DNA of 63,850 nucleotides, the filler included, from Rhabdomonas costata (taxonomy: Eukaryota), in NCBI GenBank assembly GCA_019059605.1. It is 51 parts of 51 records of this genome, joined end to end, with 100 filler letters (N's around TTAATTAATTAA, not from the genome) between each part and the next. Parts side by side here need not be neighbours in the genome. Positions count along the whole stretch, not along the records: positions 21,326 to 22,476 come from JAHMHO010025959.1; positions 22,577 to 23,730 come from JAHMHO010025960.1; 49 more parts are not named here. One strand, written 5' to 3'. The notes beneath the pieces were generated by a model that was given only the letters and a program-made list of their open reading frames with translations, did not search any database and was not told the DNA's origin. Below, piece after piece: positions 3,763 through 61,596 of the stretch (its first letter is position 1; the number at the start of each line of letters is the position of its first letter). Position numbers and translations under genes: made by a program.

Positions 3763-3948
3763 GTTGTTGAAAAAGATATGACCAGAGAGGAACGTATTAA
3801 CCTAGAGTGGCTGCTAATTAATTGCCCCAAAGAGATTGATGGAGTAGCTTTAGGCGAAATTTTAAAATTGATGGAGCCAACAGATTATTGGGATTGTCGA
3901 GATCCTGAGATACTAAAATATTTTGCTAAAAAGATAAACCAAAAATAA
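3763..3948 (+). CDS. 3' end of a hypothetical bacterial/phage protein
   Basis: Open frame VVEKDMTREERINLEWLLINCPKEIDG...KYFAKKINQK* in an AT-rich intronless contig. Confidence 0.5.
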   Translation, partial: VVEKDMTREERINLEWLLINCPKEIDGVALGEILKLMEPTDYWDCRDPEILKYFAKKINQK

Positions 3949-4117
3949 GGGTACAAGAATGAAAGGAAATGGGTATATATGACGGTATTTATTGGGAATT
4001 AATTGACATGGAATAATTAAAAGCCTTTCTAGCAGAGGCGACAACTATCCTGACACGGGGGGGAAATAACAAGAAATTAGCTTTGGAATTTATAATTTTT
4101 AAGAGGTGTTTGTTGTA

Positions 4118-4916
4118 ATGATAAGTAACACAATATTAAGTCTGTACCACCAACAACCATTTGCACCAAGTGATCACCCTTATTTTATAAAGAAAAAAAT
4201 AAGTCCTAATGATTTTCTTGATGCAAAATGGCTAACGTTAGATGGTGTAAGAATGGTAAGTAATGCTTTGTCTATTGCAAATGAAGCGCCTGAAAAGGCT
4301 TTGATAGTTCCTTTGTATGATGAAAAGCTTGTTGTACAAGGGCTACAGTTTATTCCACAACCAGATGCTAATTGGGATACCAAACCTTTTTTAAAAGGAA
4401 GCCATTTAAAAGGATGTTTTTTTGTTCTTAATGGTACCAAGCCATTAGATAAATTTTATGTGTGTGAGGGGCTAGCTATAGCAGTAACTATATGTGGTAT
4501 TACAAAAAGAACTACTTACGTGACTTTTGGTGGAGGCAATCTAGCCGCCGCTATCGAAACCATTAAGAAATTCCACCCGTATTCGAAAATTATTATTGCA
4601 GCAGATAACGACAAGTATCTTGAACCTGAAAGTAATCCAGGGCTAGAAGCTGCTCAACATGCAACTAAGGCTCATAATTTAGCTTCAGATATTGCGTATA
4701 CTTACCCTATCTTTCCTAACAATAAAATAGGAAAATCATTTACTAACTTTAATGATTTGTATAGTGAATATGGAGTTGAAACAACCAACAGGCAATTATA
4801 TGAAAATTTACAATCTCTACCTTTAACTCAAGACAGACAAAGTAATCTGGCAGAATTATCAAAGCTTTTTCCTGGGAAAGAAAAAGACAAAGCAACCTTA
4901 AAGTTTACAAAAAACA
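4118..4916 (+). CDS. TOPRIM-domain DNA primase, phage P4 alpha/plasmid TraC-like (3' truncated)
   Basis: Motifs LIVPLYD..GLQFI, KPFLKG..KGCF, YVCEGLAIA, FGGGNL, IIIAADND, NFNDL; SD-like AGAGGTG at 4102-4108 before ATG 4118; no introns. Confidence 0.85.
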
Positions 4917-8781: not shown

Positions 8782-9812
8782 GTTGTGTGGGTCTATCTCT
8801 TCCTCTATCTCATATAATCTTTTGTCATCATCCTCATATGCCTTTGTTTCATCCCTCGACTCTATCACCCTTCCTAAAACTGTTCGTGAGGCATTAGATC
8901 ATCCAGGTCGGCAAAAAGCAATGACAGAGGAAATGAATACCTTAGATGACAATGGTACTTGGGAGTTGGTTACTCTTCCTTCAGGGAAGCGGGCAATTGG
9001 ATGTAAATGGGTCTTCACGGTCAAAATGAATCCAGATGGCACGCTTGCTCGATTAAAGGCCCACTTAGTTGCTAAAGGCTTTGCCCAGACATACGGCGTT
9101 GACTATTCCGATACCTTCTCTCATGTTGCCAAGCTGACATCCGTCCGACTTTTCATCTCCTTGGCGGCAACTCATGAATGACACATTCACCAACTCGACA
9201 TTAAGAATGCATTTCTGTACGGGGATCTACACGGAAAAGTGTATATGGAGCAATCACCTGGTTTTGTTGCTAAGAGAATGGCCGTGTGTGTCGTCTTTGA
9301 AAAACGTTATATGGGCTGAAACAAAGCACTCGTGCTTGATTCGGAAGGTTTAGCCAAGCTCTTGAACAATTTGGGCATCGAAAGAGCAAATCTGACCACT
9401 CTTTATTTTTCTGGAATACGAAAGATGATGTCATTCTCTTAGCTGTTTGTGTTGATGACATAGTAATTACAGGAACTGACACTACTAGCTAGCATATCGT
9501 CCCTCAAACCTTCCTCCACATACAGCTCCAAACGAAGAACTTGGGCGCGCTAAAATACTTCTTGGGTGTTGAAGTATAGAGAAACAAGCAGAAAAAGTAT
9601 ATACTTATCGCAAAGTAATTATGTACTTGATTTGCTTTCTGAGACAGAAAAATTAGGAGCCAAACTGTGCAATGCCCCAATGACTACCAACATGCAACTG
9701 ATGAAGGAAGGAGAACTAATGGATGATCTTGAACGATGCAGAAGATTAGTCGGCAATTTATACTACCTCACCGTTACTCGCGCAGATATTGCATACTCCG
9801 TCATCAGTTGCA
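8782..9812 (+). mobile_element. Degenerate Ty1/copia reverse transcriptase, land-plant-like
   Basis: [58 protein letters not shown]; in-frame stops (e.g. 9179, 9271, 9298) and a frameshift. Confidence 0.95.
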
Positions 9813-11451
9813 TGTTAGGAGCCAAACTGTGCAATGCCCCAATGACTACCAACATGCAACTGATGAAGGAAGGAGAACTAATGGATGATCTTGAACGATG
9901 CAGAAGATTAGTCGGCAATTTATACCACCCCACCCNNNNNNNNNNNNNNNNNNNNNNNNNNNNNNNNNNNNNNNNNNNNTTAATTAATTAANNNNNNNNN
10001 NNNNNNNNNNNNNNNNNNNNNNNNNNNNNNNNNNNTGTGTTGGGTGTGATCTGGGAGAGAGCGACGATCATTTCGTCTCCCCATTTGATTTAAAAAATTG
10101 GCTCATGCAACGAAGACATGGGTGGAAGCTTTTGATCGGGAAGTCAAAGAAACTTGGGATAGGGGACAATCGTCAATGAAGTTTTTGCTGCCATCCCACC
10201 CCCGCCACCCTCTGATTTCATGGGGTTGGGAGGGAGCGAGCAGAGAGGATTGCATTTCCTTTAAGGCTGGGACCCGCGGGGTCATCCTGGCCTGGTCTTG
10301 TGGTCAGCCGGCACTCCGCGGCACCTGACAGTGCTATAAAACCCCCCGTGCGAGCACCCAGACTGCAGGCTGCGCGTCTTGACTCGGACACCTTTTCTTT
10401 TCTTCCCCTTTTATTTCCTCCGTCATTTTTTTCCGCGCACAAACATGTACAAACTTATACAAACTTGTCCACTGTCCCAGTCACCCAAACCAAAAGCATC
10501 TGCTGCGGCGGTCCGATAGCAAAAGCTATCGCATGTACTTTTTTTTTTTGCTGAGAATTCATCTACATACAACACTTCACAGACCGACCCTACCCACCCC
10601 AAGAGCGCAGCCTGCAATAATATCGTGGTCTGCTTGCAAGACTCCGGCTGGGCATTTTCCTTCATTGGACTGACGGAACGCATGCACAACTACAAGTACA
10701 AAATCCTGATCAGTATTTAATTTTTTGGGAGAAAGATCACGACACTGCGGCACCGGAGTTGTTGCAGCGGCTGCAGTTCAACAACAAAACAGACAAAGTA
10801 TAAGAAGGAACGTGAGATGTGAAGGGGGGCTGCATAAGACAAAACTGGGAAGAGAAATCGGAGGTTGCAGTGCAGAAAAATAAATTGCCCAAAAATGCAT
10901 CCCCAAAGTATGTGCGGAATTTTTTTTGATCACGTTTGATCACGTGGGCCCCTATCGCGGGGATGGAGGCAGGTGGGTTTTTGTACATAAGTTGCGGGTG
11001 CCGTCGATAAACCCTCCGCTGCGCTGGGGAAAGGAGCGGAACAAGATAAAAAGGAAGCTTGGCGCGTAAGAAAAATCAAGGAAAGAGCAGCCAAGGGGCA
11101 CGGGTGGGTACCGGCCACGGAGCCGGCCGCGGAGGGTGTAAGGACCGACCACCCAGCGTTTCGGGAGGCCCACCGTAAAAAACACCCCCNNNNNNNNNNN
11201 NNNNNNNNNNNNNNNNNNNNNNNNNNNNNNNNNTTAATTAATTAANNNNNNNNNNNNNNNNNNNNNNNNNNNNNNNNNNNNNNNNNNNNCGCCACCTTTG
11301 CAACCCCAAATGTAAATATGCTTGCTCTCACCCACTGTGTTTTCTCAAGGATTCTTTCGGCCTCAAGGCAGCATCAGCCCACAATGGGAATCAAGTCAAT
11401 GCCGCAACGGGGGTTTGTTGGGCACAGGGAAGGGTGGGTGGGGGGTATACA

Positions 11452-22247: not shown

Positions 22248-22617
22248 GTATGTTTCAGTGCATTTCCCCGTTTCCCAAGAACAGGATTCTCTGAATCGCC
22301 TTGCGCACTTGGGAGACCCTTTCTGCTGTGCAGGTAGGGTCCAAGGTAACCGAAATCGGGGAAGTCGGCTCATTGTTTGCGGGTGAAATACACCTCAACA
22401 TACACCCTCTCCTCAATACCGCAGACCGTCGCAGCCAACAAAGATCACAACACAAAAACAAAAGCTCCCAACCACANNNNNNNNNNNNNNNNNNNNNNNN
22501 NNNNNNNNNNNNNNNNNNNNTTAATTAATTAANNNNNNNNNNNNNNNNNNNNNNNNNNNNNNNNNNNNNNNNNNNNGGGGTTGGTGCAAGTGTACATACA
22601 GTTCAAATAAGTTCAAA

Positions 22618-23730
22618 AATTTATTACATTCACTCATCATTTCTTTGAAATATCTTTTAAATAATTCTTCAATTACAATTCCTGCTGTATCTACACGTTT
22701 ATTTATAAAACTATCTCGATCATCTGGTTGTTCTCTTTCTAATACACAATTCATTAATTTATTAATCATGTAGCATAAATAAAAAGCTTTATGAATTTTC
22801 GATTCTGTTATATGTGGTAAAAATTTCTTTTCTAAAATATCTAATAAATGCATTTTCTTTTGCTGTTGTTTAATATTCTTATCTGTTTCATTATATACCT
22901 TCATAACTCTTAATTTATTTGTTAAAAAATTAATTGCATCTTCTTGTGATGATATTTTAATTTTACTTTTTGATGTTTCGATTAATAATTTAACTAAATT
23001 AATCATATCAATATCATTAGGATCATATACAATTGCATTTATAATATCTCTATCATTTTCTATTCCTAATGCTTTTATCATAATAAAAACAGATACTTCT
23101 GATAATATCGGTACTAATAATGATAATACATTGTTCTTTTTTAATTTAAGAGCTATTATTTGTTTTATTCCTTGAGGATCATATGATTTTGAACTTATTT
23201 GAACTGTATGTACACTTGCACCAGCTTCTTTTTTTATAAATACCATTGGTTTATTCTCACATATTCTTTCAATTGAAATAACTACCTTTTCTGATCCGTT
23301 TACAATAAAATATCCACCGGCATCAAATATACATTCATCATCTATTCGTTTTGTTATTGTCAAATTACAGAATTTAGATTTTACCATAATTGGAACAATT
23401 GCAATAATTGTTTTTTCTGGATTTCCTACTGTTTTCACTTCTGTTACATTTGTATCAATGTCTATAATTTCTTGAACTTGTTTTACATTTACCATTATTT
23501 TTGATGCATAAACTAAATTTCTATTTCGTGCATCCATTGGAAACATTAATTCTGAATCTGATCCTATTACTGGTTGTCTTATTTCTGTATTTGTAAAAAG
23601 AAATTTGTATCTTATAATTTTATTTGTATCTGTTATTTTTTCATAAATAACGTGATTGTTTGACTCTAAATATTTGGGTATATCTTCATCCAAACATTTA
23701 TTGAAAGAATTAAGCAAATGTGCGTATAAA
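22618..23730 (-). CDS. rpb2: DNA-directed RNA polymerase second-largest subunit (Rpb2), Nucleocytoviricota/Mimiviridae-like, partial
   Basis: FPMDARNRNLVYAS, VPIMVKSKFCNL, ECIFDAGGYFIVNGSEKVVISIER, FLPHI, DDRDSFINKRVDTAG; intronless, very AT-rich and divergent from cellular Rpb2, unlike the host contigs. Confidence 0.9.
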
Positions 23731-38768: not shown

Positions 38769-38884
38769 CCACCACCCNNNNNNNNNNNNNNNNNNNNNNN
38801 NNNNNNNNNNNNNNNNNNNNNTTAATTAATTAANNNNNNNNNNNNNNNNNNNNNNNNNNNNNNNNNNNNNNNNNNNNGGGGTTT

Positions 38885-39154
38885 GGGATCTCCCCAATCG
38901 TCGACTTGGATAATCTTTGCGCCTTGCAAGAGCTGCATCACTAGTCCAGCGGTGACGATTGGGGAGATCCCAAGTTCCATCAGCGTACCCTTATTCGACG
39001 CCAGAATCACTCGCATCCAGTAAAATGGATCAGAGGATTTGGAGGCGCGGATCCCGAAGACAGGAATCTGGCAGCAGACCAAGAAGATGAACAATGCAAG
39101 CGCTGTCCATAGGATGCGATCTTGGAATTTTACCTTCTTCTCCGGTGCAGTAAC
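38885..39154 (-). CDS. SEC61A: Protein transport protein Sec61 alpha, exon
   Basis: [65 protein letters not shown]. Confidence 0.97.
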
Positions 39155-41409
39155 CTGTGCAAAGGAAAAAACTAACAAAAAACACCAAAGGCGGAGCTCA
39201 GTCCGTTCGTCTTTCAAAAAGACAACAGCGAACGAATTCAACATTTTTCCGTCGGATTTATTTTTTGTGGCTGGTGTCACAATTGAAAAGGTGAGGAGTG
39301 CAATAGAGTGAGAGATAAAAGCTCGGCTGTATAGGGGTTCGCAGGTTGCGACAGTTTGTGCAAGTTTCGAATCCAAATTTTTAAGAAGTATTTAATTAGG
39401 CATATAACACCTCCATCATGTACCTTATATGATAATATGCTTTTGATGTTTATTCAATGTTTCTCATAAAAATACGAAATATCGGGGAGAGGGCTCCACA
39501 TCACCCAATACTTGACCCAGGCTCGCTTCCGAGGAAAAATTGAGTTCACACTTTTGCTATATTAATTAAAATAATTTATTAATATTAACCTGGAATCCTG
39601 TTGTGCGGGACTAAATTCTCCTCACCAAATTAATATTGGATTTTCAAAAGCAATAATTTCTTCAGGAGTTTGAAACAACATCCAAAGTGAGCTCAATCAG
39701 AAAAAACCACCTCCGGGAGAAAACTCACAAACGGCTTGATCAGATGGAGGAACCTCATCTCTTTTAAAAAGAGACAGGTCTGTGTAAGATACCCAGGCAC
39801 TCGTCAGATGAGCAGGGCACATATGTTCCCCCGGGGCTCAGTGGAGCCTCCGGGGCAAAAAATTTTTCCATGTGGAGCTGAAAATATTTCTGCTAAGACA
39901 ACGAGGGTTGGAGCGGGTTGGTCGCACAACAAACAAAGGACTCTGACAACAGACGTGATCTATCATCACTCCTGCAAACCAGATTGCGTCGCCTTTGGAA
40001 GAGTCCTTTGTTTGTTGTGCGACCACCCCCCNNNNNNNNNNNNNNNNNNNNNNNNNNNNNNNNNNNNNNNNNNNNTTAATTAATTAANNNNNNNNNNNNN
40101 NNNNNNNNNNNNNNNNNNNNNNNNNNNNNNNGTCCTCCGCTTCCGCCACTGCCGGTGCCATTACCCCCGCTGCTCCCGGACGAAGCTGGCACAGATAGAA
40201 GCAGAGGACAATTTGGGCAGTGCCACATTTTCACAGGTCTTCACAGAAAGTAAGCTCACGACAGCCTCTCTACAACACCGCCCATGAGGGTGGGAAATTG
40301 TGGACCAGTTGTGGTTGTGCCTTTGTGTGATTTTCGGTGATTTTTCGCCATCCTTGCAAGCAACCACAGAAGAGTCCTGTTGTTCAAGAGGGTGAGTTGG
40401 ACGAGCTCGGATCAGCGATGGGTGGAAACCTGCACGTCAAAAGGATAGTAATTCTGGAAAGAAGTGTCCTGTCGAAAACAAATCAAGCGCAAAAAAAAAA
40501 ACCTGCAATATCACCGGTAATCTGGGTCTGCATATCATACTGGGATCCTATTGCATGTTGCCTGGTTAGCGGGCATCCCACGTCTGACAGCAGAGCTATA
40601 GGATCCTCCGTGCGAGCACCCAGGCTGCGCGCGTATTAGGTTAGGAGCAGCTTTTCATTCCATCATCGCTCTCCTCCATGTGTGTGCGTGTTTCTTTTCC
40701 GTATTTTCTTCGCCCAAATATACACAAGCGCGGACAAACAGACACAGCTGTCCCTAAGGCAAAGAAGAATATCCTCCTCGCAGAGTAAACCGGTTACGAT
40801 TCTGGCGTTGCCAAATTCCAAGCGCCTATCCCACTACCCCAAGGGTGGTCGAATTCCGCGCAAGCGGTCCTCACAGACCCTTCCTCGCATCGTTCACGCC
40901 CGAGGGTGCACAGAGTTGAGCATTTCAAGCTCCTTCCTGTTACGAGTTCTGGACACTCTGCCCACGCACACGCACACCCGAGCAGCAGTCGCTTTGGCTG
41001 CACACGGAGGTGGAGCAAACTGTGCCGACGCTGTTTACGACGTAGCCGGTAGGGCAGGCCGAGTAGTAGGTCGCACACGTCGGGTTGGCTGAATCAAAAA
41101 AATCAACGCCAAGAGTGCTCCAATGCAGAACCTATCACAGGGAAACACTCCCTTCCCTCACTTCGATCCTCTAAATCATTCCCTTCACTCACCATTAAGA
41201 ATAAAGTTGATACCCTTCATTCAAACAAAGCACAGAGACGCAAAATGATGCCCTTGCAGCGCACAGCATCGGGAAAAACACCACCNNNNNNNNNNNNNNN
41301 NNNNNNNNNNNNNNNNNNNNNNNNNNNNNTTAATTAATTAANNNNNNNNNNNNNNNNNNNNNNNNNNNNNNNNNNNNNNNNNNNNGTTGTTGGGTGTGGT
41401 TGGTTGGTT

Positions 41410-57683: not shown

Positions 57684-58837
57684 TTTTTTGACAATGAGTG
57701 CAAAATATCTCAATAATAATAATCAAAATATTAATTGGTCAATAAATAAAGATCATTTAATTGGATTTGATATTGATGAAAATGTTAAGAATATGGCATT
57801 ACTTAATGTCTTTTTAGAAATCGGCGAATTATGTACAAATACATTAATCCGTCAAGATACATTGTATAATGATTTAAAATTACAAGATGGAACATTAGTT
57901 CAAGACATCGACATTATATTAGCGAATGAACCAATGGGAATAAAAAATATTAAATATGAATCATGCTGTAACAGAATAAAAGAATTACAAATAAAAGGAA
58001 CAAGAGCGGAACCTCTTTTTTTACAATTATTTATGAATATTTTAAAAGAGAATGGACGATGTAGTAATAGTACCGGATGGTGTATTATTTAATGAAAATA
58101 TTTTATACAAAAATACACGAAAATATTTAATTAATAATTTTAATGTAAAAAAGATCATATCATTAAATGATAATAATTTTTTTGTAAATACCGGAATAAA
58201 AACAAGTATAATTTTTTTTCTTAAAAAAGATAAAACACAAGAAATTGAATTTTGTGAAATATCCATGTTAAACAATAAGCTTATTGAAAAAAAAAAAAAT
58301 GTTGTGTATGAAGAACTTGTACTTCATGAATATTCATTGTTTATAAATAAATACAATACAACAAAAATACAAAAGATAGATGGTCTTAAATATGAAAAAA
58401 TAAGTAACATATGTAATTTCTTAATAAAAAGTAAACGATCAGCAACGTCATCATTTGTAAATGACAACGGCAAATATCCATTTTACACATCAAGTATGAT
58501 AATAAGACGATGTAATGAAGCAGATTATAAGGAAGAATGTCTTATAATTGGAGATGGAGGATGTGCAAATGTATATTCAGATACATATTTTAGTTGTTCG
58601 AATCACAATTACATATTAAATTCAAAATCAGATGAGATTCAATTCAATATATAAAATATTATTTAAAAATGAATATAGAGATACTGAAAGATGGATTTAA
58701 AGGCTCGACATTGAAAAATTTATCAAAAACATATATTCAGAATATTGAAGTACCAATACCAACAAAAAATATTCAAGATAGTATCATAGAACAATTGAAT
58801 ACAATAAGTGAAAATAATGATACATTAACAAAAAACA
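57684..58837 (+). pseudogene. Type I-like restriction-modification N6-methyltransferase fused to a specificity (TRD) domain, giant-virus-like; two frameshifts
   Basis: LIGFDID, DIILANEPMG (motif IV position), LFLQ..LKENGRC/VIVPDGVLF, F.NTGIKTSIIFF, GKYPFYTSS, IIGDGG, FKGSTLKNLSK..IEVPIP...Q; frame changes at ~58062 and ~58637. Confidence 0.85.
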
Positions 58838-60190: not shown

Positions 60191-61268
60191 GGTGTTGGGT
60201 GTATTGTTTACATTAAGTACATATACAATAAAATATAATGGATCAGCTGTTGAATATACAACAGATGGTACTACTTGGACTTTATTAACAGTTCCATCCG
60301 GAACAATGTCCGGATATATGACATATATGCCTGTAATTAAATGGACGAATGGAACATTGAGTTCTGCGATAAGTTCATTATCAGATTGTTCGATATCTAG
60401 TATTTCAAATGATCAATTGTTAGTATATACAACTGCTAGTTCCTTAAATAAATGGACACCTTATTCATTATCAGGAGCGACATTTGATGATACAAATAAA
60501 ACAATAACTGTCAGTGGAACGACATCTATATCTGGATTAACAACAGATGTATTAATTTCGTCACCATCAAATGGTCAAATATTGACATATAATTCAAGTT
60601 CAAGTAAATGGATAAATAACACATTAGCTGTATCATTATATTTATCTGGCTTACTTGATTGTACAATAAGTAATGTATCTGATGGTCAATTATTAAAATA
60701 TAGTTCATCAACATCAAAATGGATAAATTACACACCAACTACACTTTCTAATACAAATGAAGTCGGAACATTAACACAAATGTATGGAACATTTGGCGGA
60801 GGTGTCTATGGCTCTGGGATTACACAAAATTCATATTTTGTTATTCCTTCATATATAGATAATACAGGTAATTCGACTATGTTTACAAATTATGCAACAG
60901 CTCTTACTGTATTAAATGTTGGTCCTTTTACAGGTTCAGTATCTGGATCTTATATTAAAGATTCAATTTATTTAGAAAATGATAATAACAATTATGATGC
61001 ATCATATAGATTAAATATTGATTATACTACGACATATAAATTAATTTATTTAACAGCTACATATGGATTAGATGCGAAATCATATACAATATATTTTTAT
61101 GCATCAAATAGTTCTACATCATTTAATGATACAAGTACAACAACACGTACAACAGATACCAATTTAGTTTTATTAGGATCAAGTTCATTTACATTAAGTT
61201 CATATCAATATTATACATCAACAATAACATCATCAGATCAAACGACATTATATCGATATGTTCATGTA
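60191..61268 (+). CDS. Viral fibre/adhesin-like repeat protein, partial
   Basis: Three copies of L(S/L/T)D(C/V).IS..S.(G/D)Q.L.Y...SSKW.N in a Ser/Thr/Tyr-rich intronless AT-rich ORF; its apparent C-terminus is a fold-back artefact. Confidence 0.65.
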
Positions 61269-61596
61269 TTTGATCTGATGATGTTATTGTTGATGTATAA
61301 TATTGATATGAACTTAATGTAAATGAACTTGATCCCAAAAAACNNNNNNNNNNNNNNNNNNNNNNNNNNNNNNNNNNNNNNNNNNNNTTAATTAATTAAN
61401 NNNNNNNNNNNNNNNNNNNNNNNNNNNNNNNNNNNNNNNNNNNTGTGGTGTGTTTGGGGGGGGGTGGTATGACTACGCCTCGGGGGAGCTGGTGACCATG
61501 GCCAGTGGTGTGCATATACCTGTGTGTGCATGTTTGTGTGTTGCCTACTCTCCCACTCATTGCATGCTTGCATTGCGTGCATTCTCCTTGCTACAG

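What the first reader, a model, noticed from the sequence alone, without database searches (positions are those of the whole stretch)
22577..23730. Giant-virus RNA polymerase in an apparent euglenid single-cell assembly: candidate new virus-host pair
Seen: an uninterrupted, intronless, very AT-rich Rpb2 fragment among GC-richer intron-laden host contigs; two further contigs (57684-58837, 60191-61343) share that composition. Known: Mimiviridae encode their own Rpb2, and Bodo saltans virus infects a kinetoplastid. I know of no characterised giant virus of euglenids. Inference: the cell was infected by, had ingested, or had endogenised an Imitervirales virus. The contigs are unlinked, so this is co-occurrence only.
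Basis: partly seen in the sequence, partly recalled or inferred. Interest (0 to 1): 0.8.

Follow-up and report, generated by a model that had tools for sequence, protein, structure and literature searches.

The report
Giant-virus polymerase fragment beside euglenid DNA
A 1.1-kb piece of a giant virus's own RNA polymerase gene lies among DNA of the euglenid Rhabdomonas, which is a lead to a possible new virus-host pair that this window alone cannot prove.

Summary
Contig 22577-23730 has 24.5% GC, against 43-58% for 47 of the 51 contigs. It is one open frame on the minus strand encoding the N-terminal third (Pfam Rpb2 domains 1 and 2) of an RNA polymerase second-largest subunit.

Its relatives are giant-virus sequences. 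It is 59-60% identical to unnamed intein-bearing metagenome proteins and 54% identical to an Edafosvirus MAG. 567 IMG/VR stretches are relatives; 38 of the 80 loci kept carry GVMAG names. The best cellular Pol II match scores 164-167 bits, against 480 bits for the best viral-type hit. Conserved positions are kept, so the gene shows no decay. The last 42 nt of the contig are a fold-back artefact.

The GC-normal contigs are euglenid. A Sec61-alpha exon is 85 of 85 identical to Rhabdomonas costata.

The virus-host link remains co-occurrence only. The two other AT-rich contigs are not shown to be viral: one is a twice-frameshifted bacterial-type adenine methylase, the other a repeat protein with only unnamed relatives. 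A fourth low-GC contig carries a phage or plasmid primase, so foreign DNA is present in the assembly. I could not reach reads, the whole assembly or a cellular Rpb2 for a tree.

Euglena gracilis giant endogenous viral elements (GEVEs, order Asfuvirales) and giant-virus-like methylases in R. costata transcriptomes are already in print.

The parts
22577..23730 (.). One 1154-bp contig of 24.5% GC, foreign in composition to the 47 GC-normal contigs
   Evidence: Contig bounds and GC. GC at third codon positions is 11.6% here against 62.4% in the host Sec61 exon.
22620..23729 (-). 370 codons of the N-terminal part of a giant-virus-type RNA polymerase second-largest subunit (Rpb2), cut at both ends by the contig
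   Evidence: Pfam RNA_pol_Rpb2_1 covers residues 5-370. 59-60% identity to P0002/P0003 and 54% to the Edafosvirus MAG P0005. Gap-poor alignment A3. 36 of 37 columns conserved at 90% or more are kept.
22689..23246 (-). Rpb2 domain 2 (lobe) inside the same frame
   Evidence: Pfam RNA_pol_Rpb2_2, residues 162-347 of P0001, profile 6-190 of 190, E 4.4e-27. Coordinates converted by me.
22582..22618 (.). Fold-back end: a perfect inverted copy of 23187-23223, not part of the gene
   Evidence: 37 nt, 100% complementary. The same kind of end is seen in 11 of 51 contigs.
57684..58837 (+). AT-rich contig (23.1% GC) with an N6-adenine DNA methylase fused to a specificity (S-subunit-like) part, read in three frames. 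Membership in the virus is not shown.
   Evidence: N6_Mtase profile positions 61-179 lie in one frame and 181-275 in the next. The tail gives a weak match to S-subunit model NF047740 (E 4.5e-4) and to phrog_2668. Relatives are bacterial-type at about 30% identity. No close relative was found in three collection scans.
60191..61343 (+). AT-rich contig (28.5% GC) with one open frame rich in Ser/Thr/Asn that carries a repeated motif of the tail-fibre kind. Origin unresolved. The end, 61269-61335, is a fold-back copy of 61176-61242.
   Evidence: No Pfam or NCBIfam family. Weak PHROG and phage tail-fibre matches. 16 unnamed metagenome relatives at 30-73% identity over part of the length. Fold-back.
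38900..39154 (-). Host marker: exon of Sec61-alpha that identifies the GC-normal DNA as Rhabdomonas costata or a very close relative
   Evidence: 85 of 85 residues identical to EukProt R. costata P0248, and 70-78 of 85 to eight other sequences, five of them named euglenids. The exon is preceded by a pyrimidine tract and CAG.

Best explanation
The contig is a real piece of the genome of an uncharacterised giant virus of the order Imitervirales, in a lineage that branches with Edafosvirus-like (Klosneuvirinae-type) sequences. It encodes the protrusion and lobe part of the virus's own RNA polymerase second-largest subunit. In these viruses that enzyme transcribes viral genes independently of the host's Pol II (established knowledge of the family, not tested here). 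The DNA was co-assembled with nuclear DNA of the euglenid Rhabdomonas costata or a very close relative. Shown: the viral type of the gene, its intact and conserved state, the euglenid identity of the surrounding contigs, and co-occurrence. Inferred only: how the viral DNA came to be there. My ranking is: carry-over or contamination not tied to the euglenid, about 0.4; a virus replicating in the euglenid, about 0.3; a recently integrated copy, about 0.25.
For: Pfam Rpb2 domains 1 and 2. The best hits are intein-bearing metagenome proteins at 480 bits and 59-60% identity, and an NCBI-named Edafosvirus MAG at 453 bits and 54%. All 150 best of 3599 cluster representatives score 165 bits or more, and the one organism name recovered among ten looked up is 'Megaviridae environmental sample'. 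The best solved cellular polymerases are Pol II Rpb2 at 164-167 bits; archaeal scores 122, Pol III 79, African swine fever virus (ASFV) 48 and Pol I 42. In IMG/VR, 567 of 594 candidate stretches are relatives, and 38 of the 80 loci kept carry GVMAG names. Those 80 loci have a median GC of 25.5%. Flanks of six of them carry TFIIB, Rpb5, UDG, Hsp70, Lon and a poxvirus-type poly(A) polymerase regulatory subunit. In both trees the query sits in a six-row clade (support 99) inside a larger clade (97 and 99) that holds Edafosvirus. Edafosvirus is placed in Klosneuvirinae together with Bodo saltans virus in PMC13037468 (passage). The frame is open for 384 codons against at most 151 in 1000 shuffles. 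It keeps 36 of 37 columns conserved at 90% or more, where the other 144 rows lose a median of 1. Host identity.
Against: No cellular eukaryotic Rpb2, and in particular no euglenid one, could be fetched, so the tree holds viral-type sequences only; the contrast with cellular enzymes rests on scores. Of the 20 relatives looked up by cluster, only one carried a giant-virus name. One cluster (that of P0108) holds a member that NCBI labels 'Magnetococcales bacterium' MAG, which I take for a mis-binned contig without having tested it. None of the hallmark families (major capsid protein, PolB, A32, VLTF3) appears in the window's ORFs or in the 56 flanking ORFs scanned. Only 1.1 kb is demonstrably viral. 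The other two AT-rich contigs gave no hit in 1.37 Mb of related giant-virus loci.
Confidence: 0.88

Rival explanations
1. The virus replicates in the euglenid (acute or persistent infection), which would make a true new virus-host pair.
For: The host DNA is R. costata-like. That species is described as a primary osmotroph kept in monoeukaryotic culture with bacteria (PMC8219788, passages), which makes uptake of infected prey an unlikely route. I did not establish that this window comes from such a culture. A 2026 preprint lists giant-virus-like adenine methylases in R. costata and Peranema transcriptomes. The gene is intact and conserved. The subfamily that holds Edafosvirus also holds Bodo saltans virus, which infects another euglenozoan.
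Against: There is no physical or expression link in the window, and reads were not available. Only one contig of 51 is demonstrably viral. The contig is short, which does not suggest the high copy number of an acute infection, although all contigs of this window are short.
Confidence: 0.3
2. The fragment is part of a giant endogenous viral element integrated in the euglenid genome.
For: Such elements exist in Euglena gracilis (PMC12455990, abstract). The preprint reads its euglenozoan hits as consistent with integration. If the methylase contig belongs to the same element, its two frame breaks would fit erosion. A contig that assembles no better and no worse than its host neighbours would fit about one copy per genome (inference).
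Against: No host-like sequence or junction lies in the contig. GC is 24.5% against about 50%, and third-position GC is 11.6% against 62.4%. The frame is intact and conserved positions are kept. The known Euglena elements are Asfuvirales, whereas ASFV Rpb2 scores only 48 bits here.
Confidence: 0.25
3. The viral DNA is carry-over unrelated to the euglenid: free particles, DNA from another organism of the sample, or cross-contamination of libraries.
For: Other foreign DNA is in the same window. Contig 3763-4916 (34% GC) carries a phage or plasmid Toprim primase (phrog_2249, E 9e-31). The methylase contig has bacterial-type relatives. Fold-back ends in 11 of 51 contigs point to amplified low-input DNA, which raises trace DNA to assembly level (the reading is mine). 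Only 1.1 kb is viral.
Against: Trace contaminants seldom reach contig length in a low-coverage assembly (inference). An independent report exists of giant-virus-like genes in R. costata RNA data.
Confidence: 0.4
4. It is a cellular Rpb2 of some AT-rich eukaryote, or of the euglenid itself.
For: Among solved structures Pol II is the best-scoring class, and JGI labels many relatives 'RNA polymerase II subunit RPB2'.
Against: 164-167 bits to Pol II against 480 bits to intein-bearing proteins on contigs of up to 1.15 Mb. The gene has no introns in an assembly whose host gene has them. Eukaryote-affiliated R. costata transcripts do not fall below 45% GC (PMC8219788, passage). The relatives' flanks are dense and of giant-virus type.
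Confidence: 0.02

Closest known systems
Rpb2 of Edafosvirus sp. (soil metagenome MAG, Klosneuvirinae, Mimiviridae, Imitervirales)
   Same: 54% identity over 97% of the fragment at 453 bits. Same larger clade in both trees. Same AT-rich make-up as the related loci.
   Different: The query's own six-row clade consists of unnamed metagenome proteins (P0002, P0003, P0004, P0006, P0104) at 51-60% identity, so it is a separate, unnamed lineage. Those relatives carry inteins further downstream, in a part the contig does not reach.
Bodo saltans virus, the only isolated giant virus of a euglenozoan (a kinetoplastid)
   Same: Same order. By PMC13037468 (passage) it is in the same subfamily as Edafosvirus. 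Its host is in the same phylum as the euglenid.
   Different: Its host is a phagotrophic kinetoplastid, whereas R. costata is an osmotrophic euglenid (PMC8219788, passages).
Giant endogenous viral elements of Euglena gracilis (Asfuvirales)
   Same: Giant-virus DNA found with a euglenid genome.
   Different: A different order: ASFV Rpb2 scores 48 bits here against 453-480 for Imitervirales-type proteins. Those elements are integrated and eroded (PMC12455990, abstract). Here no junction is seen and the frame is intact.
Cellular RNA polymerase II subunit Rpb2
   Same: Same domain order (protrusion, lobe). It is the best-scoring cellular class.
   Different: A third of the score of the viral-type hits. 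The composition and absence of introns are unlike the host's.

Membership tests
Multisubunit RNA polymerase second-largest subunit (Rpb2/beta family) | N-terminal protrusion and lobe domains in the family's order | tested here: met
   Pfam RNA_pol_Rpb2_1 at 100.2 bits (cut-off 28.2) and RNA_pol_Rpb2_2 at 95.4 bits (cut-off 21.7), nested as in the family.
Multisubunit RNA polymerase second-largest subunit (Rpb2/beta family) | Catalytic and clamp-side domains 3-7 | not testable with these tools
   The contig ends after about residue 410 of full-length relatives. The rest of the gene is not in the window.
Imitervirales (Mimiviridae-like) Rpb2 | Branches with named members and away from cellular Pol I, II and III | tested here: inconclusive
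   It branches with the Edafosvirus MAG inside well-supported clades, and all 150 best representatives outscore or equal cellular Pol II. No cellular sequence could be put into the tree.
Imitervirales (Mimiviridae-like) Rpb2 | Relatives lie on large, AT-rich, densely coding viral contigs | tested here: met
   38 of the 80 best IMG/VR loci are named GVMAG, on contigs of up to 720 kb. Median GC is 25.5%. The flanks carry TFIIB, Rpb5, UDG, Hsp70 and Lon.
Giant-virus genome present in the assembly | Other hallmark genes (major capsid protein, PolB, A32 ATPase, VLTF3) with the same composition | tested here: not met
   None among the ORFs of the window's four low-GC contigs, nor among 141 ORFs of the other 47 contigs. 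The window is a small sample, and the whole assembly is not held.
Giant endogenous viral element | Viral sequence joined to host sequence on one molecule | tested here: not met
   The contig is viral-type from end to end apart from a fold-back of its own sequence. A 1.1-kb contig cannot exclude a junction further out.
Virus-host pair (infection of the euglenid) | Physical, expression or replication link between virus and cell | not testable with these tools

The most novel reading that the evidence does not exclude
An uncharacterised klosneuvirus-like giant virus replicates, perhaps persistently, in Rhabdomonas costata. This euglenid feeds by osmotrophy and is not known to engulf particles. 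It would be the first giant virus tied to a living euglenid and the first Imitervirales partner in that class. It would also raise the question of how such a large particle enters a cell that does not phagocytose.
Probability: 0.3. Interest if true: 0.75.

Novelty: new member of a known kind. Interest (0 to 1): 0.42.

Why it matters
Discoba has one isolated giant virus (Bodo saltans virus), and euglenids have only eroded Asfuvirales insertions in Euglena gracilis (PMC12455990, passages). A live or recently integrated Imitervirales virus in a heterotrophic, osmotrophic euglenid would widen the known host range. If the organism is in culture, it would also give a tractable system. As it stands the finding is a cheap, specific lead: one intact viral polymerase fragment at about 60% identity to anything on record, next to identifiable host DNA. 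It is also a caution for users of such assemblies, which hold viral, phage and bacterial-type DNA together with fold-back artefacts.

Tried and rejected
1. Whole-genome search: no genome is held, so low-GC contigs could not be binned and no hallmark-gene or 18S search was possible.
3. Earlier notes of the scan: none.
4. Rfam on the whole window: no family, so no rRNA or spliced-leader marker for the host.
5. Names for relatives: of 20 Rpb2 relatives looked up, one carries a giant-virus name, one cluster carries a bacterial MAG label, and the rest carry function labels or nothing.
6. Cellular Rpb2 for the tree: none was retrievable. The 14 control genomes of the genome search are prokaryotes and gave no loci. 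The phage collection gave only a 26% match to 'Mollyvirus'.
7. Single-protein scan of IMG/VR with Rpb2: nothing. The alignment query worked.
8. Methylase contig: no close relative in IMG/VR, in 185,579 species genomes or in JGI metagenomes by pattern scans. These scans need exact 8-residue patterns, so this is weak evidence.
9. Repeat ORF: the Atlas gave scores under 0.8 only. IMG/VR matches cover the repeat motif only.
10. Whole IMG/VR records behind the best loci: not held.
11. The idea that the AT-rich contigs are host mitochondrial DNA: rejected, because their genes (Rpb2, type I-like methylase, tail-fibre-like repeats) are not mitochondrial ones.
12. Supplementary files of the papers were not opened. 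Those of PMC8219788 (GC and codon-index histograms, lists of removed transcripts) and of the 2026 preprint (which R. costata transcripts are giant-virus-like) may bear on the claim.

Full report
WHAT THE WINDOW IS

The 63,850 bases are 51 contigs of 1150-1158 bp joined by N/TTAATTAATTAA/N spacers. The finding's coordinates, 22577-23730, are exactly one contig. Forty-seven contigs have 43.0-58.4% GC. Four are lower: 22577-23730 (24.5%), 57684-58837 (23.1%), 60191-61343 (28.5%) and 3763-4916 (34.4%).

THE OBSERVATION

One frame on the minus strand is open across the whole contig, 384 codons. In 1000 shuffles of the contig the longest open frame had a mean of 68 codons and a maximum of 151. Pfam finds RNA_pol_Rpb2_1 (E 1.5e-28) and RNA_pol_Rpb2_2 (E 4.4e-27). 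These are the protrusion and lobe of the second-largest subunit of a multisubunit RNA polymerase.

The frame aligns with seven relatives with no gap above seven residues, so it has no intron. One correction is needed. Bases 22582-22618 are a perfect inverted copy of 23187-23223. The last 14 or so residues of the frame are therefore a fold-back artefact, and the true coding part is about 22620-23729.

WHOSE POLYMERASE

- Among 5.8 billion proteins, searched for the 673-2000 aa length class, 951 of 3556 candidates passed E 0.001. The 120 listed are 47-60% identical over 95-97% of the query.
- The best, P0002 and P0003 (59-60%, 480 bits), are 1874-aa proteins with intein and LAGLIDADG domains. 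One hit carries an organism name, 'MAG: ... [Edafosvirus sp.]' (54%, 453 bits).
- Against 1.84 billion cluster representatives there are 3599 hits at E 0.001 or better and 315 at 1e-30 or better. All 150 listed score 165 bits or more.
- Of 20 relatives looked up by cluster, one more organism name came back, 'Megaviridae environmental sample' (34% identity). One cluster holds a member labelled 'Magnetococcales bacterium' MAG, which I take for a mis-binned contig but did not test. The rest bear only function labels or nothing.
- The best solved cellular enzymes are Pol II Rpb2 of fission and budding yeast at 164-167 bits. Archaeal Rpo2 scores 122, Pol IV/V 89, Pol III 79, African swine fever virus (ASFV) 48 and Pol I 42.
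Of the 80 loci kept (31-49% identity), 38 carry 'GVMAG' in their names, which I read from recall as giant-virus metagenome-assembled genomes. The contigs reach 720 kb.
- These 80 loci have 18.1-45.6% GC with a median of 25.5%, which matches the contig.
- I scanned 56 flanking ORFs of 200 aa or more from six of the best loci. From the 63 ORFs found I dropped the six Rpb2 ORFs and one ORF nested in one of them. The scan gave 17 families, including TFIIB (4 ORFs), UDG (4), Rpb5 (2), Lon (2), Hsp70, DUF5847 and a poxvirus-type poly(A) polymerase regulatory subunit. No capsid, PolB, A32 or VLTF3 lies in those flanks.

TREES

A FastTree of 145 rows was built after dropping ten fragments with under 300 aligned residues. 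It puts the query with P0002, P0003, P0004, P0006 and P0104 (support 99), inside a 66-row clade (support 97) that holds Edafosvirus.

An IQ-TREE quick search on 54 rows used every fourth leaf, the named rows and eight IMG/VR loci. It gives the same six-row clade (99) inside a 33-row clade (99) with Edafosvirus. A 617,453-bp IMG/VR record falls in another clade. PMC13037468 (passage) places Edafosvirus in Klosneuvirinae together with Bodo saltans virus.

The contrast with cellular enzymes rests on scores.

STATE OF THE GENE

The query keeps 36 of the 37 columns that are at least 90% conserved in the other 144 rows. Those rows lose a median of 1 and at most 7. Against seven close relatives it loses 6 of 85 invariant columns, inside the range of 3-14 found when each relative is left out in turn. 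Third-position GC is 11.6%, against 62.4% in the host exon below. Nothing suggests decay or adaptation to the host's composition.

THE HOST

I scanned 141 ORFs, the three longest of at least 70 aa from each of the 47 GC-normal contigs. Six Pfam families were hit, one ORF each: RVT_2, Plug_translocon, SecY, Suf, C2 and Proteasome. This is a eukaryote with retroelements.

The Sec61-alpha exon at 38900-39154 (minus strand) is 85 of 85 identical to the EukProt protein of Rhabdomonas costata. It is 70-78 of 85 identical to eight other sequences: Jenningsia, Euglena mutabilis, Anisonema, Chasmostoma and Ploeotia, plus three unnamed metatranscriptome or MMETSP proteins. Animal sequences are about 72% identical. 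The exon follows a pyrimidine tract and CAG, and the frame departs from the transcript after its last residue.

The GC-normal DNA is therefore R. costata or a very close relative, on the evidence of one exon. I did not try to tie the window to any record or study.

For context only, a published draft genome of that species was made by whole-genome amplification of sorted and microdissected cells from a monoeukaryotic culture with bacteria. Its N50 is 1194 bp and its GC is 51.6%. Its eukaryote-affiliated transcripts do not fall below 45% GC. The main text does not contain the words 'virus' or 'viral' (PMC8219788, passages).

THE OTHER LOW-GC CONTIGS

- 57684-58837 encodes an N6-adenine methylase. 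Pfam profile positions 61-179 lie in one frame and 181-275 in the next. A specificity-subunit-like tail lies in a third frame. That makes two frame breaks in 1.15 kb. Its relatives are bacterial type I methylases at about 30% identity, and bacterial clusters in the Atlas. Three pattern scans found no close relative.
- 60191-61343 is one Ser/Thr/Asn-rich frame with a repeated motif. It has weak matches to PHROGs of unknown function and to a phage tail fibre. It has 16 unnamed metagenome relatives on contigs of 0.8-23 kb. Its end is again a fold-back.
- Neither contig, nor the primase, has a match in 1.37 Mb of related giant-virus loci.
- 3763-4916 carries a Toprim primase of phage or plasmid type (phrog_2249, E 9e-31).

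The shared composition is therefore real, but it does not show that these contigs belong to the same virus. The assembly demonstrably holds other foreign DNA.

ARTEFACTS

Eleven of 51 contigs hold inverted 20-mers. In ten of these, by my reading of the coordinates, one arm lies within 15 nt of a contig end. From general knowledge I read this as the mark of amplified DNA or of the assembler. It fits 'amplified low-input sample' but does not show 'single cell'.

HOW THE VIRAL DNA GOT THERE

Nothing in the window links it to the cell. Three points favour a real association:
- The host species is described as an osmotroph, which makes ingestion of infected prey unlikely (PMC8219788, passages).
- A 2026 preprint reports giant-virus-like adenine methylases in R. 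costata and Peranema transcriptomes and in the Euglena gracilis genome, 'consistent with viral integration' (10.64898/2026.05.21.726589, passage).
- Trace DNA seldom assembles (inference).

Three points weigh against it:
- Only one viral contig is present.
- Phage and bacterial-type DNA lie in the same window.
- The DNA was probably amplified.

My odds are carry-over 0.4, replication in the euglenid 0.3, recent integration 0.25 and anything else 0.05.

WHAT IS KNOWN

- Bodo saltans virus is the only isolated giant virus in Discoba (PMC12455990 introduction; PMC8061765 section 5, passages).
- Infection of euglenids 'has not been verified experimentally' (PMC8061765, passage).
- Eight eroded Asfuvirales elements are described in E. 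gracilis (PMC12455990, abstract).
- My searches for 'giant virus' with 'euglenid' found 17 papers, for 'Euglenida' with 'Nucleocytoviricota' 2, and for 'Rhabdomonas' with 'virus' 6. In their listings, and in the passages I read, there was no Imitervirales-euglenid pair and no isolated euglenid giant virus. Subscription journals and supplements were not searched.

VERDICT

This is a genuine, intact fragment of a new Imitervirales lineage, co-assembled with Rhabdomonas DNA. It is a new member of a known kind and a reasonable lead, not yet a virus-host pair.

Noticed in passing
window, 11 of 51 contigs (e.g. 1-54/114-167, 46409-46467/46483-46541, 61176-61242/61269-61335): Perfect inverted duplications with one arm at or near a contig end. 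These are fold-back chimeras that add false codons to open frames at contig ends and probably reflect DNA amplification or the assembler.
   Followed up: partly
This suggests bacterial mobile-element or phage DNA in the assembly.
   Followed up: partly
window 57684-58837: The N6-adenine methylase fused to a specificity-subunit-like part is read in three frames, with breaks near 58046-58092 and 58636-58654. It is either a decaying gene or carries amplification or assembly errors. The first break is not at a homopolymer.
   Followed up: partly
window 8782-9935: Ty1/copia-type reverse transcriptase (RVT_2, E 6.4e-20) in a GC-normal contig. The same contig repeats a stretch of about 36 residues twice in tandem in the frame 9554-9934.
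   Followed up: no
window 38878-39200, minus strand: The Sec61-alpha exon is preceded by a pyrimidine tract and CAG, but the sequence after its last codon does not begin with GT. This may be one of the non-conventional introns known from euglenids (recalled knowledge).
   Followed up: no
protein P0125, in the cluster of P0108: A giant-virus-type Rpb2 relative on contigs of up to 407 kb is labelled 'Magnetococcales bacterium' MAG in NCBI. This is probably a giant-virus contig binned with a bacterium.
   Followed up: no
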